This document shows positions 1-63,900 of a stretch of 64,000 bases of DNA, in pieces. This stretch comes from Leucoraja ocellata (lineage: Eukaryota): the NCBI GenBank assembly GCA_036785375.1, contig JAWMAR010002012.1:62001-126000 (forward strand), in the 5' to 3' direction. Position numbers: made by a program. The first letter of the stretch is position 1. The number at the start of each line of letters is the position of its first letter.

Positions 1-3000
1 ACTCCATGTATAGGGGATAGATAGCAGATTACGAGCGTAGTCCGGCGCAAACGCTAAAACTGTTTGCAGCACCATAATAGTACACCTTTTCCTCTCACGA
101 TCAATCACCATCTTCCACTTTCCTACATTTTAATAACATGCTCCTCACCTGTCGCTTGTAGTGCTATTTTCAGTTCTTTAATTTCTGGAAGAACACATTT
201 GTAGCGTCAGGCGTCGTTCCCAAGCAATTCATTATCTGCATTAATATTACTGAAAAGAACAAGGTCAGGTCAGGTCGTGGAGAGTTCCCATCGCCATGGG
301 TACCATGTAATCCCGTGCTACCATGGTCGGATAATTGGCAATTAAGCCGTCTTCCCCACCTGGTTTGCCAGGTGAGAAGGGGGCTTTGGACGAGATGAGC
401 TCCTAACGAGCCAACGGTCAGCCAAACTTCAGTTGAAATTGCTTCCATTGTTGTACATAGCATTTAAGGCACCGTGCCAGTTGATGTTCTCAACGATGAT
501 GATGATGAGAACGACAGCATTTTGAAAGAGAAATTACGGTTATAAACCTAAAGATACCATAAACCAAATACAGTAGTATTGTATATTGCAGTTAATTTAA
601 GAATGGTGGAGTATGAAGTAGGATAATACTACGGTTGTTATGGGGGATTTGAACGTGCAGGTAGACTGGGGAAATCAGGTTGGTACTGGACCCCAAGAAA
701 GGGTGTTTATGGAGAGCGTCCGTGGTGGATTCATATGCCCCTGTCCCACTTAGGAAACCTGAACGGAAACCTCTAGAGACTTTGAGCCCCATCTAAGGTT
801 TCCGTGCGGTTCCCAGAGGTTCCTGGGGGGTTTTGCCAGTCTCCCTAATGGTCGAAAATGGTTTCCGCTTCTTCTATATTCCGGCGATTATTTAAAAAAT
901 TTAAAAACCGGCCACGACTAAAAATAGGTTGCAGTTTTAAAAATCGGTAATTTTTAAGTCGAAGCCGGTTGCGATGCTAGTTGAAGGTGGTTGCCGGAGG
1001 TTGTAGGTAGTGGAAGGTAAGACTTTAACAAGTCTTGGACAACATGGACAGCATCAAAATACTTGCTGTGTAGAGAGGCAGGAACTACAGCTTTGTGGCC
1101 CTGTACGATCATGCCATCTTGTATTACTAGTTCATCACGGATGGCAAAGAAGGGCCGAATTTGGAAGTGGTAGATTGTGTTGCTTGTCAGGCCATCTGCG
1201 CTTAATGACAGAGGAGAGCTATCGTAAGGTATCGTCAGCGGCAGTGTGAGCTACTAGGTCCTCCAAGCAGGACGAGAGAATAAATGAAATCGTTATCTGA
1301 TGTGGAGGAACCATCGCAGGTCGTTTGAGGAGCACGCGATAGGGTGTCAGCCAGGTGCATGTCGTTGCCACCTTTGTAGGCTAGAACAATGTCATACTTC
1401 TGAAGCTGCAGCAACATCCGTTGAAGGCGTCCTGGAAAGGCGTGTATTGGTTTGTTCAAGATGCTGATCAGGGGTTGATCGGTAGTTTCAATCATGAACA
1501 TTTCCCCTATGATCAAGCCATTAAACTTGTTACATACAAAACGACCGCTACCAGCTCCTTTTCAATTTGCCGTAGCGTTGTTCCGTGTCTGTCATGGTGC
1601 GCGAGGCATAGGCAACAGGCCCGTTGCCGTCACCTTAATCTTGGAGGCAAGCTGCTCCTAAACTGTACTGTGAGGCGTCACAAATCAGTGTGACCGGTAA
1701 TTTAGCATTAAAGTAGGCGAGAGTGGGCGCACAATTTTAAGAGAGCAAAAAATACCGATAATGCAAAAATCACGAGGGGTGAAAAGTTATATTGGCAAAG
1801 TGAATTCTTGTTTTACCACGACGAATGCTAAATCATAGTGGCGTAAATAACCGTGGACCATTTTAGGCAAAGCGGTATATGTTATTTTATTGCATAGATT
1901 TGCAGAAATAGGAAATCAAAACAGCGCTCGACCAAACTAGGCGATAATCTCACTGGATCTTTCGAAAATACTTTCAAATCGGACGAAATAACCATCAACC
2001 CAAAATGTTTTACACTTACCTTTATATTTATTGGAAAGGTCTTTGCCTGTACGAAATAATAAGTAGCGAGCTAAGTAAATAATTGATTAAGAAGAACACA
2101 ATGAAGAACACCACGCATATTTCGATCGCAAATTATAATCACTTTCCACAAATAAGTGTCCAGCAAATGGTCATATATTTATGGATCTACCTTACCATGA
2201 GTACAAACAAAAAACATACACCCAAAATTCGCACAAAACATACACCCAAAACCCGCATAAAACATACACCCATACACCCATCGTCGCGAGCCCTCACCGA
2301 TGCCTCCTGGATCGCCGCGTAAAACTCCGGCCGGGGCCTCACAGGTAGAAGCCCAGGTCGGACGAAGCGATCGACGGCACCCGCGACTGAGCTGCACGGA
2401 GGCCGTGAAGTGGGCTCGGCACCACGTTGGCGCCCGCAGACGCAGCTCCAGCCGAGTGCGCACTCCGCTCGTTCAGCTTTATATTCTCGCCGGGCGAGGT
2501 GGGCGCCGCCCGTGAGTGACCGCAGACCAGGCCAATCAGTGCGGTGATGGTGCAGGGAGGGTCTTCGCCGCCCCGGCGACTGACAGGAGAAGAGACAAAT
2601 CTACGTGACGGCGACAGACAGGAGACCAATCTGCGCATGCGCAATTTAAATAGTTTTAAACACGAATAACTTTTAAAATATACCATCGATCGGAACAAAA
2701 CGTATTGCCCTTGTAGCACAGGAGAATGGCGAGTAAGTCTGCAAAACATCGTAGCCCTCTATCCCTTACCGATCTTGCGCAAATAGAAAAAAACCGCAAA
2801 ACCGGAAGAGCACAAATCAGTTTTAGTATAAAAGANNNNNNNNNNNNNNNNNNNNNNNNNNNNNNNNNNNNNNNNNNNNNNNNNNNNNNNNNNNNNNNNN
2901 NNNNNNNNNNNNNNNNNNNNNNNNNNNNNNNNNNNNNNNNNNNNNNNNNNNNNNNNNNNNNNNNNNNNNNNNNNNNNNNNNNNNNNNNNNNNNNNNNNNN

Positions 3001-60900: not shown

Positions 60901-63900
60901 CAGGGATGCCCTGGCGAGGGACCCCGCTCCAGATGGTAAGTCCCCGCCGCGTCCGCGGTAGAAGTAGGCCGCGGGCCCGCGGTCGGAGCTTCTTCTTCTC
61001 CCGGGTACCCAACGGGATCCCAGGTTGCGGACGCCGCCAGCTGCAGCTCCGCAGACCGCGGCTTCAGACTGCCGCGGGCCAGCGAACGGAGCGCTCCCCT
61101 CCGGCGCCCCCGGCGAGTGCTCGCCTGCTCCACGCCGAGAGTCCACGTTGCGCCCGCCGGTGAAGCCCGGGCGCGTGTCCGGGAAAGGCCGCACTGATCC
61201 TCGATGTTAGGCCACGAAGGAGGCGACACGGAAAAAGTCGTGGAGGAGGCGACCGAAACGGTTTCCCCCTCACCCCCCCCCCCCCCCCCATACCAACCCC
61301 CACACAAGACACACAGAAATACACCAAAAACACACATTAGGACACACAAATTTTTTTTTAAAGTAGAAAAAACTAACACGCTGCTGGCAATTTGTTTTGT
61401 GTGGGCTTGCATGCGTCCCCCCACCGACCTGTATAGGAGTATAGGAGGAAATAGGTTGTTCTGCAGTTGTACAGGGCCTTAGTGAGACCACACCTAGAGT
61501 ATTGTGTGCAGTTTTGGTCTCCAAATTTGAGGAAGCGCATGCTTGCTATTTAGGGAGTATGCGTATGTTTACAGGATTAATTCGCGGGATGGCGGGACTG
61601 TCATATCCTGAGAGAATGGAGCGGCTGGGTTTGTATACTCTGGAATTTAAAAGAATGAGAGGGGATCTTATTGAAACATATAAGATTATTAAGGGTTTGG
61701 ACAGTGGGGAAGTGATACAATCTTAATCTGAGAAATATGGGTAAGACGGCTGCAAGTCGAAATAATAAATAAAGAGCAACCACTATCAATCAAGGGGTAA
61801 GATGATCTAATATTGAGGAACATTGGCACAAAATTCCCTCCTTCAACAGATAATATTTTCAATTAAATAATGTTCTTCAATGTGCATTCCCTTATAAATA
61901 AATCGTGTGGAATTAAATGTTAATGGAATGGGAATGGGACATGTTCAGTAACAATGTCGCTTTTCAAATCGCAATTTTGATTGTTAAGCATAGTAAGGTT
62001 ATTTCTCTCGACAAAATAAAAATCGCTATATACAATTTACCCGTGTCTTTCGTTCGCAGGCTCTCGTCTATAAGTATAATGATACGTTATCCGATAGTGC
62101 ATGGTCAATGCCTGCACCAAAACATTGGATTTGCATTTACCTTTTAGCTGACTCGAGGTGCATGAAATCCTTTCAAATATCGACTGCCCTGTTATAGAAT
62201 TTTTCTGTTAATGATATTTCTAAATCTTTGACCGTATTATTGTATTGGCTAAGCGGCACACCAGCAGAAAGTTCCACTAATTTTCACGTCACATTCCAGT
62301 TTCCTTAACTACTTAACTGAGCTGACAAGTTAACCGTCATCGTCAAAATGCACCCCCACCCCCCCCCCCCCCCCCTTCAAACTGAACCTGCTATGTAATT
62401 AACTAAATTTGTGGCTGACTTGATTTTAACTGAATTCCACTCAACATTCCGATCAATGAGCGGCAAATTGCACCTGTCATTCAGAAAATATGGTTTCATC
62501 ATTTTCGGCTATAAACCTAGATGCAAAATGCGCCGAGGAAATTGAATTCATAAGATCGTGATAGTAGCAGAACTAGGCTATACTGCCCATCATCTACTCG
62601 CCATTCATTCATGGCTGATCTATCTCTGCATCCGAACCCCATTCTCCTGCCTTCTCCTCATAACATCTGACACCCGTACTAATGTTAAATCTATCTATTT
62701 CTGCCTTAAACATATCCACAGCCTTCTGTTGCAAAGAATTCTACAGATTCACCACCCTCTCACTAAATAAATTCCTCCACAATACCTTTCTAAAATAATG
62801 TCATTTAATTCAGAATATATGACCTCTCGTCCTAGACTCTCCCACTAGTGGAAACATCCTCTCAACATCCATTCTATCCAAGCCTTTCAATATTCTGTAA
62901 GATTAACCGAGGTCTCCGTCATTCTTGTAATCTCCTGCGAGTGCAGGCCCAGTGCCGTCAAACGCTCTTCATACTCACTCATTCTTATAAACCTCCTATA
63001 GACCATGTCCAGCGTCAGCACATCCTTCCCCAGATACAATGCCAATGATTACTCACAATATTCCCCATGCAGCCTGACTAGCGCCTCGTGGAGCCTCAGC
63101 TTTGCATTCCTATTTTTGTATACCAGTCCACTAAAAATATATGCTAGCATTTCGTTTCTTTTCTTTATTACCGTTTCGACTTGTAGATTAACTTTTTGGA
63201 AATCCTGCACCAGCACTCGCAAGTCCATTTGCACCTATGATTTCTGGATTCTCTCCCCATTTAGAAAATGATCTACGCCTTTATTCCAACTACCAAAATA
63301 TTTGACTTCACTATTTGCTACACTATATTCCATCTGCCACTTCTCTGCCCACTCTCTCATTCAATTCAAGTCTTTCTGCATAATCCCTGCTGTCTCTGCA
63401 CTATCTTCCCCTCCACCTATTTTTGTATCATCCGCAAACTTTCCCACAAAGCCTTCACTACCATCAACCAAACCAACAATATACAACGCGAAGAGCAGCG
63501 CCCCCAACCGCGAGCCCTGGGAGACTCCGCTAGTCTCTGGCAGCCAACCAGAAAGAGCCCCCTTTATTACCACTCTTTGCCTTGTATCACCCAACCAATC
63601 TGATATCCGTATTGATTCACCGTTACTTAACCATGAGTTACTTGTCGACAATAGAAACATAGAAGCATAGAAAAATACGTGCAGGAATAGGCCATTCGGC
63701 CCTTCGAGCCATTCAATATGATTATGGCTGATCATCTAAAATCTATACCCCGTTCCTGCTTTTTCCCCATATCCCTTAATTCCTGTGGGTCCAAGAGCGA
63801 AATCGAACTATCTCTTGAAATTAATCTCTGAATATTAACATATTTCCACGTATCATGCTGTATAATCTTTAACAATTCGATTGTCGCATGTTTTCTCGTG

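What the first reader, a model, noticed from the sequence alone, without database searches (positions are those of the whole stretch)
149..62188. Hidden gene made almost entirely of symmetric microexons encoding a ~360-aa modular coiled coil
Seen: 35 minus-strand segments of 24/27/36/48 nt, each AG...GT bounded, a multiple of 3, ending in G (phase 1-1) and stop-free. They join into an E/K/L/Q-rich helical repeat. Only ~1.7% of the window codes, and the six-frame ORF track does not recover the protein. Established: runs of tiny symmetric heptad exons build the cytoplasmic tails of butyrophilin/MOG-family and chicken BG genes (mostly 21-27 nt). Inference: this may be a cartilaginous-fish BG/BTN-like protein, or an unrelated lineage-specific coiled-coil protein, using a 27+36 exon code. 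Automated annotation could easily miss or fragment it.
[Added by the scan's program, not by the reader: the finding's places include an assembly gap (unread letters, written N; its length is only estimated) at 2836 to 3299, 51174 to 51435. Whether the letters on both sides are continuous or in frame is not known: test that first.]
Basis: partly seen in the sequence, partly recalled or inferred. Interest (0 to 1): 0.92.

Follow-up and report, generated by a model that had tools for sequence, protein, structure and literature searches.

The report
Microexon gene encoding a coiled-coil rod
The minus strand carries the middle of a large animal gene whose product, a long helical rod, is encoded by about thirty 27- and 36-base exons spread through 62 kb of intron, most of them made by repeated copying of a 3-kb block.

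Summary
Those criteria alone are weak: 113 such 27/36-nt candidates on the minus strand, 42 on the plus strand. Paralogue evidence decides. A tandem array of about 3.1-kb units (3.8-33.5 kb) holds nine 36-nt and ten 27-nt copies. All 19 keep AG, GT, exact length and an open phase-1 frame, while their introns are 62-70% identical and full of indels. Outlying copies keep only the exon. One pair differs by 5 synonymous and 1 non-synonymous change with unalignable introns. Of the 35, 29 are supported, 2 marginal, 3 unsupported and 1 (56234-56257) lies inside a retrotransposon RT fragment. One further exon (47605-47631) was found. A 36+27 pair gives 63 nt = 21 residues = 3 heptads, and the heptad register is significant. 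The BG/butyrophilin identity is untested: the window has no Ig, TM or B30.2 exon, and no homology search was possible. There is no transcript evidence, start or stop. Both N gaps lie in model introns and could hide exons.

The parts
3700..33473 (-). Tandem array of about 10 units of ~3.1 kb, each normally holding one 36-nt and one 27-nt exon plus introns
   Evidence: Self-BLAST of unit 10607-13749 gives colinear hits from 3867 to 33473 at 66-86% identity. Multiple alignment of nine units.
33100..33135 (-). 36-nt exon, tandem family
30257..30292 (-). 36-nt exon, tandem family
26976..27011 (-). 36-nt exon, tandem family
23441..23476 (-). 36-nt exon, tandem family; poor donor (GTTCGC) after loss of about 80 nt of downstream flank
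17783..17818 (-). 36-nt exon, tandem family
13714..13749 (-). 36-nt exon, tandem family
10571..10606 (-). 36-nt exon, tandem family
8378..8413 (-). 36-nt exon, tandem family
4713..4748 (-). 36-nt exon, tandem family
31190..31216 (-). 27-nt exon, tandem family
27535..27561 (-). 27-nt exon, tandem family
25976..26002 (-). 27-nt exon, tandem family
22497..22523 (-). 27-nt exon, tandem family; the only copy starting GG, so its junction codon is Gly
20035..20061 (-). 27-nt exon, tandem family; follows another 27-nt exon because its unit lost the 36-nt exon
16546..16572 (-). 27-nt exon, tandem family
12815..12841 (-). 27-nt exon, tandem family
9903..9929 (-). 27-nt exon, tandem family
7466..7492 (-). 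27-nt exon, tandem family
3945..3971 (-). 27-nt exon, tandem family, last unit of the array
149..184 (-). 36-nt exon, outlying family member beyond gap 1; supported
   Evidence: PSSM score 15.9 against plus-strand maximum 5.0. pN 0.31 and pS 0.74 against the tandem copies; null minimum pN 0.55.
59909..59944 (-). 36-nt exon, outlying; supported
   Evidence: PSSM 11.6; pN 0.41, pS 0.84
51497..51532 (-). 36-nt exon, outlying; supported more weakly
   Evidence: PSSM 6.2, just above the null maximum 5.0. pN 0.49 is below the null minimum 0.55, but pS is only 0.43.
45737..45772 (-). 36-nt exon, outlying; supported
   Evidence: Only the exon plus about 5 nt aligns to the tandem copies, at 76-86%. PSSM 28.2; pN 0.24.
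39581..39616 (-). 36-nt exon, outlying; supported
   Evidence: PSSM 8.2; pN 0.46, pS 0.86
62041..62067 (-). 27-nt exon, outlying; supported
   Evidence: PSSM 8.0 against null maximum 6.2; pN 0.46 against null minimum 0.49
53656..53682 (-). 27-nt exon, outlying; supported
   Evidence: pN 0.46. Its first 12 nt are identical to tandem copy 31190.
50781..50807 (-). 27-nt exon, outlying; supported; acceptor has A at -3
   Evidence: pN 0.41; sequence
47605..47631 (-).
   Evidence: Against 34628-34654: 5.0 synonymous differences over 5.0 sites and 1.0 non-synonymous over 22.0 sites, with flanks unalignable. PSSM 10.2.
42450..42476 (-). 27-nt exon, outlying; moderately supported
   Evidence: Mean pN 0.51 against five supported outliers; 1 of 120 null segments is as low. 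Within the null range against the tandem copies (0.61).
34628..34654 (-). 27-nt exon, outlying; supported
   Evidence: PSSM 11.5; pN 0.39; paired with 47605
57847..57873 (-). 27-nt candidate; marginal
   Evidence: pN 0.58 against tandem copies, within the null range. Mean 0.57 against outliers; 5 of 120 null segments are as low.
53793..53819 (-). 27-nt candidate; marginal; resembles the 3' part of the 36-nt type
37567..37593 (-). 27-nt candidate; good splice sites but no family support
   Evidence: Mean pN 0.70; 37% of null segments are as low
48725..48748 (-). 24-nt candidate; strong splice sites (GTAAGT donor) but no family support
62141..62188 (-). 48-nt candidate, 5'-most; not heptad-like, unsupported
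56234..56257 (-). 24-nt candidate, probably false: it reads the frame of a retrotransposon RT fragment
   Evidence: Pfam RVT_1 E=6.2e-10 for the open stretch that contains it
2836..3299 (.). Assembly gap 1 (N), inside the model intron between exons 3945-3971 and 149-184
51174..51435 (.). Assembly gap 2 (N), inside the model intron between exons 51497-51532 and 50781-50807, next to a CT-rich low-complexity run
55151..56642 (-). Neighbour inside an intron: LINE-type retrotransposon fragment, with its RT-bearing reading frame interrupted at least three times
   Evidence: Pfam RVT_1; open stretches fall in different frames

Best explanation
The window holds an internal part of one large minus-strand protein-coding gene of an animal genome; there is no start and no stop in view. 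Its product here is an alpha-helical coiled-coil rod built from 21-residue (three-heptad) modules.

Each module is split over a 36-nt exon (12 residues, core I-L-L-T) and a 27-nt exon (9 residues, core M/L then a polar K/N). All exons are symmetric in phase 1, end in G, and nearly all begin with A. Every junction codon therefore reads GAN (Asp/Glu), whichever exons are joined.

The rod was lengthened by tandem duplication of a ~3.1-kb two-exon block to about ten copies, on top of older, dispersed copies upstream. Symmetric phase means that duplication, loss or skipping of any exon keeps the frame, so rod length can change in steps.

Shown: exon anatomy, duplication history, frame, heptad register.
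Inferred: that the exons are spliced as drawn; that the helix pairs as a parallel in-register coiled coil; that the length is functionally tuned.
For: - Array: colinear ~3.1-kb repeats from 3867 to 33473 at 66-86% identity.
- All 9 (36-nt) and 10 (27-nt) copies keep AG, GT, a final G and exact length.
- Exon columns are gap-free in 36 of 36 and 27 of 27 columns. Only 2.0% of 640 and 4.3% of 561 equal-length intron windows are gap-free.
- The two longest gap-free islands in the nine-unit alignment are the ones holding the two exons.
- Invariant columns: 7-8% in introns, 16 of 36 in the 36-nt exon.
- Stops in the model frame: 0 of 99 and 0 of 80 codons. Other frames: 10 of 108, 1 of 99, 1 of 90, 2 of 80.
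- The 36-nt exon is 0.81 identical against 0.62-0.70 for intron.
- Old copies keep only the exon. 45737 aligns over the exon alone. 47605 against 34628 shows 5 synonymous and 1 non-synonymous differences with unalignable flanks.
- All five outlying 36-nt exons have pN 0.24-0.49, below the minimum 0.55 of 113 plus-strand controls, and three of them have pS 0.74-0.86. Five outlying 27-nt exons have pN 0.39-0.46, below the minimum 0.49 of 120 controls.
- Heptads: with position 2 of the 36-nt exon as 'a', I/L/M/V/F fill 52 of 88 a/d cells against 14 of 224 others (Fisher p=9e-23). The best of the other six registers gives 0.41 against 0.59.
- Pro is 0.6% and Gly 2.9% of 312 residues.
- Charges at g and the following e positions are opposite in two of three pairs per module: E/D then K, and K/R then D/E.
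- Length spectrum upstream of the array: 7 (27 nt) and 5 (36 nt) well-flanked AG..GT pairs, against a mean of 2.0 per length and 1 and 1 on the plus strand.
Against: - No transcript, orthologue or database evidence could be obtained.
- Among the young tandem copies, dN/dS is 1.40 (36-nt) and 1.08 (27-nt), so there is no purifying signal at that depth.
- The 27-nt exon (0.66) is no better conserved than its intron; 53% of intron windows equal it.
- a/d positions are not significantly better conserved than others within the array (0.56 against 0.47, p=0.28).
- Two of six core positions per module are polar (T; K/N).
- The 36-nt family uses a donor with C at +3 (GTCAGG), and copy 23441 has a poor donor.
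- The 36/27 alternation is broken in several places, which would shift the heptad register.
- No start, stop or globular-domain exon lies in the window.
- Two unread gaps lie inside the model.
- The outlier motif test was shaped after seeing the data.
Confidence: 0.78

Rival explanations
1. Identity rival A: the rod is the cytoplasmic tail of a BG/butyrophilin-type immunoglobulin-superfamily membrane protein. Ig-V, TM and possibly B30.2 exons would lie outside the window.
For: Chicken BG tails are encoded by 27-37 exons of 21 nt (a few of 18 or 24), with the first codon split one base plus two, which is the same phase as here. They form a presumed dimeric coiled coil and vary in exon number (passages of PMC5938342; PMC4046983). 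Butyrophilins with variable numbers of heptads after the TM segment are reported in all jawed vertebrates, including cartilaginous fishes (passages of PMC12841164). The exon count here (about 30-36) and the phase match.
Against: Exon sizes are 27/36 nt, not 21. In BG the hydrophobic residues fall at the fourth and last codon of every exon; here the pattern has a 21-residue period. No Ig, TM or B30.2 match was found in 20 open stretches or in 20 longer phase-1-1 candidates. No sequence comparison with any BG/BTN protein was possible.
Confidence: 0.2
2. Identity rival B: the rod is the extracellular neck or stalk of a type II C-type-lectin-like or scavenger-type receptor, or part of an intracellular cytoskeletal or golgin-like coiled-coil protein specific to the lineage.
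For: CD23 has a heptad-repeat coiled-coil stalk that forms trimers (passages of PMC6791321). That its stalk is made of 21-residue repeats, each on one exon, is my recollection and comes from no call. The 21-residue module here has the same period. Two 27-nt exons carry N-x-T sequons. Coiled coils that keep length but not sequence are described as spacers (abstract of PMC5082667 as shown in the listing), which fits length kept while sequence drifts.
Against: No lectin, collagen or other domain exon was seen in the window. Each module is on two exons, not one. Nothing here distinguishes an extracellular from an intracellular location.
Confidence: 0.35
3. The array is real DNA, but the exons are no longer, or never were, all used. 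It could be a decaying relic or pseudogene stretch, or a set of cassette exons of which any one mRNA includes only some.
For: dN/dS is about 1 or higher among tandem copies, and the 27-nt exon drifts at the intron rate. One unit lost its 36-nt exon and one copy has a damaged donor flank. The symmetric phase and the constant GAN junction codon make any subset in-frame. BG genes show alternative splicing and read-through in their tail exons.
Against: Neutral decay at 62-70% intron identity should have broken splice sites, length or frame in some of the 19 copies, and none is broken. A splice-blind peptide scan finds no surplus of family copies lacking AG/GT: 5 extra windows on the minus strand against 4 on the plus for the 36-nt type, and 1 against 5 for the 27-nt type. 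CpG-rich codons in these exons could explain the fast drift; this is inference from the sequences.
Confidence: 0.25
4. Chance: the segments are random AG...GT pairs in A-rich sequence, with no gene present.
For: Loose criteria give many hits: 728 minus-strand and 441 plus-strand segments of 15-90 nt. Five or six of the 35 have no support beyond these criteria.
Against: See, set out under the best explanation. The family motif matches 13 of 49 minus-strand segments and 0 of 19 plus-strand segments.
Confidence: 0.02

Closest known systems
Chicken BG genes (butyrophilin family): cytoplasmic tail of many tiny heptad exons
   Same: Dozens (27-37) of symmetric microexons in the same phase (first codon split 1+2) encode a long presumed coiled coil. 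Exon number expands and contracts between genes and alleles (passages of PMC5938342 and PMC4046983).
   Different: BG exons are 21 nt (a few of 18 or 24), one heptad each. Here they are 36+27 nt, three heptads per pair, and the introns are 0.5-3 kb and carry retrotransposon fragments. No Ig-V or TM exon was seen here. BG intron sizes were not checked: the supplementary figures are closed.
Mammalian and other vertebrate butyrophilins (BTN): few heptad exons between TM and B30.2
   Same: Heptad motifs downstream of the TM segment, variable in number between species (PMC12841164; PMC4046983).
   Different: Butyrophilins have only a few heptads; here there are about 45 heptads' worth. The IgV/IgC/B30.2 parts could not be tested.
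CD23 (FCER2) and related type II lectin receptors: coiled-coil stalk
   Same: Heptad-patterned stalk that sets oligomer state and reach (PMC6791321). A 21-residue repeat period is recalled, not from a call.
   Different: As I recall, one exon per 21-residue repeat and only 3-4 repeats; here two exons per repeat and at least 14 repeats. No lectin domain was seen.
Schistosoma micro-exon genes (MEGs)
   Same: Genes made of very short exons (3-81 bp) regularly interspersed with long introns of up to 5 kb (abstract of PMC10526429 as shown in the listing).
   Different: MEGs encode small secreted proteins of a flatworm, not heptad rods. No tandem 3-kb unit array is described in what I saw.

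Membership tests
Coiled-coil (structural class) | Heptad pattern with hydrophobic a and d positions kept in register over many heptads | tested here: met
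   I/L/M/V/F occupy 52 of 88 a/d cells against 14 of 224 others; one register clearly best (0.59, next best 0.41). Two of six core positions per 21-mer are polar.
Coiled-coil (structural class) | Few helix breakers, many charged residues at e/g | tested here: met
   P 0.6%, G 2.9%, E+K+D+R 44% of 312 residues; g/e positions mostly charged.
Coiled-coil (structural class) | Continuous helix or coiled coil predicted for the spliced product | not tested
BG / butyrophilin family | Extracellular Ig-V (and IgC) domain exon upstream | tested here: inconclusive
   None among 20 open stretches in Pfam or 20 longer phase-1-1 candidates. Only about 1.8 kb lies upstream of the first candidate exon, and most of it is a LINE fragment.
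BG / butyrophilin family | Transmembrane exon before the heptad exons | tested here: inconclusive
   No candidate has more than 13 of 20 hydrophobic residues in a window. It may lie outside the window.
BG / butyrophilin family | Run of phase-1 symmetric heptad microexons | tested here: met
   All supported exons are multiples of 3 and open only in phase 1. The same split codon is described for BG.
BG / butyrophilin family | Exon size of one heptad (21 nt; few of 18/24/27) | tested here: not met
   Sizes are 36 and 27 nt. No 21-nt family was seen.
BG / butyrophilin family | B30.2 (PRY-SPRY) exon downstream (BTN) or short terminal exon (BG) | not testable with these tools
   Only 148 nt lie downstream of the last exon.
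BG / butyrophilin family | Sequence similarity to known members | not testable with these tools
Single exons (8-16 residues) are below the 20-30 residue minimum of the open tools, and the joined peptide was not to be searched.
CD23-like type II lectin receptors | C-type lectin domain exons after the stalk | not testable with these tools
   They would lie beyond coordinate 1.
CD23-like type II lectin receptors | One exon per 21-residue stalk repeat (recalled) | tested here: not met
   Each 21-residue module is split into 36 + 27 nt.
Schistosome-type micro-exon genes | Symmetric microexons separated by long introns | tested here: met
Schistosome-type micro-exon genes | Small secreted protein with signal peptide on a normal first exon | not testable with these tools
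   The 5' end is outside the window. A product of more than 300 residues speaks against it.

The most novel reading that the evidence does not exclude
A gene architecture not yet described: a 21-residue coiled-coil module written as a fixed pair of symmetric microexons (36+27 nt) with a constant GAN junction codon. It is amplified as a 3-kb intron-plus-exon cassette to at least 15 pairs, so that unequal crossing-over and exon skipping can set the length of a helical rod in 9-, 12- or 21-residue steps. If the flanks turn out to carry Ig-V and TM exons, it would be a BG-type long-tailed butyrophilin relative outside birds, with a different exon code.
Probability: 0.2. Interest if true: 0.75.

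Novelty: new variant of a known kind. Interest (0 to 1): 0.55.

Why it matters
Genes built from runs of exons shorter than 40 nt are easily missed or fragmented by annotation pipelines and by ordinary read aligners. Here only about 1.5% of 62 kb codes, and no ORF scan shows the protein.

The locus gives a clean internal test set: 19 paralogous microexons with their introns. It shows which features are kept (splice dinucleotides, length, frame, flanking intron islands) and which drift (most residues).

It also shows how a coiled-coil rod can grow by cassette duplication while staying in heptad register, because 36+27 nt makes three heptads.

If the gene proves to be a BG/butyrophilin relative, it bears on how old the long heptad tail is in vertebrate immune receptors. 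If not, it is an independent invention of the same trick.

Tried and rejected
- Rfam and tRNA scans: nothing.
I then sent only stop-free stretches as they stand. These gave only RVT_1 and RNase H-like hits and sub-threshold noise (Pam16, DUF5737).
- Intron homology for the outlying exons: none, except the exon-only match of 45737.
- dN/dS among tandem copies gave no purifying signal.
- The test of a/d against other positions within the array was not significant.
- A possible in-frame read-through after the 36-nt exon to a second GT was checked by eye. The extension is 38 nt, not a multiple of 3, so I rejected it.
- GC-rich blocks at 54.5-55.2 kb and 60.5-61.5 kb, and the CpG-rich block at 2.15-2.8 kb, have no copies elsewhere in the window.
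- Literature: 'butyrophilin + shark + heptad' gave 0 papers. 'microexon + heptad repeat' gave 5 papers, none on such a gene. Searches returned nothing relevant. I found no description of a 27+36-nt exon code in these searches.
- Exon-by-exon protein searches were not possible: the longest exon gives 16 residues and the open tools need 20-30.
- The prokaryote, phage, plasmid and E. coli collections were not searched, being irrelevant to an animal gene.

Full report
**Scope and limits.** The window is 64 kb, about 40% G+C, with two N runs at 2836-3299 and 51174-51435.
The open DNA collections hold only prokaryotes, phages, plasmids and E. coli.
- No relative from another genome could therefore be fetched, and the source taxon stays unknown.
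- I do not take the contig for human. Its introns carry several reverse-transcriptase fragments and a gypsy-type RNase H hint, and nothing pointed to human sequence.
The joined peptide was not built, searched or folded. Single exons give 8-16 residues, below the 20-30 residue minimum of the Pfam, PDB and Atlas tools, so no exon-level protein search was possible either.
- The N gaps were not filled.

**The observation.**
For 27 and 36 nt alone the counts are 64+49 against 23+19. The criteria alone do not define exons.
- Adding composition helps. With no P/G/C/W/F/Y/H and a D/E junction codon, 43 of 728 remain on the minus strand and 5 of 441 on the plus strand.
- From these and a splice-quality filter I rebuilt 35 segments: fourteen of 36 nt, eighteen of 27 nt, one of 48 nt and two of 24 nt. 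I cannot know that the two lists are identical.

**The tandem array.** Self-comparison shows a head-to-tail array of ~3.1-kb units from about 3.8 to 33.5 kb, at 66-86% identity including the introns.
- Each full unit has one 36-nt exon (acceptor TTTAG, donor GTCAGG) and, about 0.9 kb downstream, one 27-nt exon (acceptor AACAG, donor GTAAAT).
- There are nine 36-nt copies and ten 27-nt copies.
- One unit has lost its 36-nt exon through a deletion of about 1.3 kb.
- Copy 23441 has lost about 80 nt just after its donor and reads GTTCGC there.
- Unit lengths vary because single units carry retrotransposon insertions.

**Are the array blocks exons?** All 19 copies keep AG, GT, the final G and exact length.

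| Measure | 36-nt family | 27-nt family |
|---|---|---|
| Exon columns without gaps | 36 of 36 | 27 of 27 |
| Equal-length intron windows without gaps | 2.0% of 640 | 4.3% of 561 |
| Exon mean pairwise identity | 0.81 | 0.66 |
| Intron mean pairwise identity | 0.62-0.70 | 0.65-0.69 |
| Intron windows at least as conserved as the exon | 8.4% | 53% |
| Acceptor / donor flank identity | 0.77 / 0.91 | 0.82 / 0.83 |
| Invariant exon columns | 16 of 36 | 4 of 27 |
| Stops in model frame | 0 of 99 codons | 0 of 80 codons |
| Stops in the other two frames | 10 of 108; 1 of 99 | 1 of 90; 2 of 80 |

- Only 7-8% of intron columns are invariant.
- The two longest gap-free islands of the nine-unit alignment are the ones containing the exons.

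**Results against the model in the array.**
- Among these young copies dN/dS is 1.40 (36 nt) and 1.08 (27 nt).
- The 27-nt exon is no better conserved than its intron (table above).
- Core positions are not significantly better kept than others (0.56 against 0.47, p=0.28).
- The exons hold several CpG-containing codons, which may inflate change; that is inference.

Within the array, then, what is kept is splicing, length and frame, not most residues.

**Older copies give the protein-level signal.** Outside the array the introns no longer align, but the exons do.
- 45737-45772 matches the 36-nt family over the exon alone, at 76-86%.
- A profile trained only on the tandem copies scores 45737 (28.2), 149 (15.9), 59909 (11.6), 39581 (8.2) and 51497 (6.2) above the best of 113 plus-strand controls (5.0). 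It also scores 34628 (11.5), 47605 (10.2) and 62041 (8.0) above the best of 120 controls (6.2).
- Against the tandem copies the five outlying 36-nt exons have pN 0.24-0.49, where the control minimum is 0.55 and the control mean 0.71. For three of them pS is 0.74-0.86.
- Five outlying 27-nt exons have pN 0.39-0.46, where the control minimum is 0.49.
- 47605-47631, which I had not listed at first, differs from 34628-34654 by 5.0 synonymous changes over 5.0 sites and 1.0 non-synonymous over 22.0 sites. Their flanks share nothing.
- 42450 is moderately supported: 1 of 120 controls is as close.
- 57847 and 53793 are marginal: 5 of 120 controls each.
- 37567 is unsupported: 37% of controls are as close.
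- The 48-nt (62141-62188) and 24-nt (48725-48748) candidates have only good splice sites.
- 56234-56257 reads the frame of an RVT_1 fragment (E=6.2e-10) and is probably not part of the gene.
- A splice-blind peptide scan finds no surplus of family copies without AG/GT: 5 against 4 and 1 against 5, minus against plus strand.

This leaves 30 supported exons: 936 nt, 312 codons.

**What is encoded.** A 36+27 pair is 63 nt = 21 residues = three heptads, so each pair restores the register.
- Taking position 2 of the 36-nt exon as 'a', I/L/M/V/F fill 52 of 88 a/d cells against 14 of 224 others (p=9e-23). The best of the other six registers reaches 0.41 against 0.59.
- The core reads I, L, L, T, M/L, K/N.
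- Composition is E 17%, K 12.5%, L 11%, T 10%, Q 8%, D 8%, R 7%, with P 0.6% and G 2.9%.
- The g positions and the e positions five residues later carry opposite charges in two of three pairs per module: E/D then K, and K/R then D/E.
- By the usual rules for coiled coils (recalled, not from a call) this favours a parallel in-register pairing; that is inference.
- All exons end in G, and all but one supported exon begin with A. The junction codon is therefore GAN (Asp/Glu) whatever the neighbour, and any exon can be gained, lost or skipped without frame or junction change.
- Where the 36/27 alternation is broken (22497 followed by 20035; 50781 followed by 47605), the heptad register would shift.

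**Gaps and ends.**
- Gap 2 begins 61 nt after the donor of 51497-51532 and abuts a CT-rich low-complexity run.
- Gap 1 lies in the 3.8-kb stretch between 3945-3971 and 149-184. Array homology has already ended there, at 3867.
- No exon touches a gap and no frame crosses one. Contiguity and hidden exons cannot be judged.
- Exon 149-184 is tied to the gene by strand, phase and family score only.
- The model has no start and no stop.
- Upstream of 62188 lies mostly a LINE fragment. Downstream of 149 only 148 nt remain.
- No Ig, TM, B30.2 or lectin match was found in 20 open stretches, and none of 20 longer phase-1-1 candidates looks Ig- or TM-like.

**Comparison with known systems.**
- *Chicken BG genes.* The closest described design is the cytoplasmic tail of chicken BG genes. 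It has 27-37 exons of 21 nt (a few of 18 or 24), a first codon split one base plus two, a presumed dimeric coiled coil, and an exon number that varies between genes and alleles (passages read in PMC5938342 and PMC4046983). A 1990 paper on BG size polymorphism is known to me only as a title in that reference list.
- *Butyrophilins.* Butyrophilins with variable heptad numbers are reported across jawed vertebrates, including cartilaginous fishes (passages of PMC12841164).
- *This locus.* It shares the phase, the exon count and the principle, but not the exon size, and the defining Ig and TM parts are unseen. I therefore say it works like a BG tail and do not file it as a member.
- *CD23.* The CD23 stalk is a heptad coiled coil (PMC6791321 passages). 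Its 21-residue, one-exon repeats are my recollection.
- *Schistosome micro-exon genes.* They share short exons and long introns (abstract in the listing) but encode small secreted proteins.
- *Literature.* My searches found no description of a 27+36-nt code. They cover open-access text only. The supplementary figures of the BG papers, which may show exon classes and intron sizes, were closed.

**Verdict.** This is a real and unusual gene fragment, with confidence of about 0.8 that roughly 30 of the segments are true exons.
- Its kind is known: heptad microexon tails and micro-exon genes.
- Its particular code (36+27 nt per three heptads, carried on a 3-kb duplicating cassette) is a variant I did not find described.
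- Its family and function are open.
- Whether the gene is already annotated in its source genome could not be checked.

Noticed in passing
It is nearly the same peptide as 34628-34654, with five synonymous differences and unrelated introns.
   Followed up: yes
55151-56642 (-); also 51762-53308 (-), 62560-63735 (-), 27802-28488 (-), 35987-36395: LINE-type retrotransposon fragments inside the introns (Pfam RVT_1). Three of them share 66-74% DNA identity. In the copy at 55151-56642 the RT-bearing frame is interrupted at least three times (open stretches fall in different frames; the kind of break was not resolved). The others are truncated pieces.
   Followed up: partly
17331-17753 (+) and 957-1561 (-): Gypsy-type retroelement scraps: a weak RVT_1 match (E=0.001) and a weak RT_RNaseH match (E=0.014), both below Pfam's cut-offs.
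   Followed up: partly
20331-20513 and 23360-23440 (-): Array damage. One unit lacks its 36-nt exon through a deletion of about 1.3 kb. Another has lost about 80 nt directly after the donor of exon 23441-23476.
   Followed up: yes
12876-12912, 13618-13644, 12688-12715, 10804-10832 (-), and their counterparts in other units: Gap-free intron islands with 0.78-0.81 identity close to the microexons. They are better kept than the 27-nt exon itself and may be splicing control elements.
   Followed up: partly
10308-10510: A C-rich low-complexity tandem repeat just downstream of exon 10571-10606. It creates a spurious 186-residue ORF that begins inside the exon.
   Followed up: no
about 2300-2650 (-), beside gap 1: A CpG-rich block with a TATA-like motif. 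Its open frames have no Pfam match and it has no copy elsewhere in the window. Nature unknown.
   Followed up: partly
31190-31216, 3945-3971, 53656-53682 (-): The two edge copies of the 27-nt family and one outlier share the same opening residues, while the middle copies share another. This suggests the array grew from its middle.
   Followed up: no
34628, 42450, 45737, 53793 (-) acceptors: Four outlying exons have acceptors ending TTGCAG. A TGC just before the 3' splice site is, as I recall, a mark of regulated neuronal microexons. This was not tested.
   Followed up: no
41894-42041; 56466-56584; 18915-18990: Short tandem repeats in introns: a 20/64-nt unit, a 21-nt unit of 5.7 copies inside the LINE fragment, and (TTA)25.
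   Followed up: no
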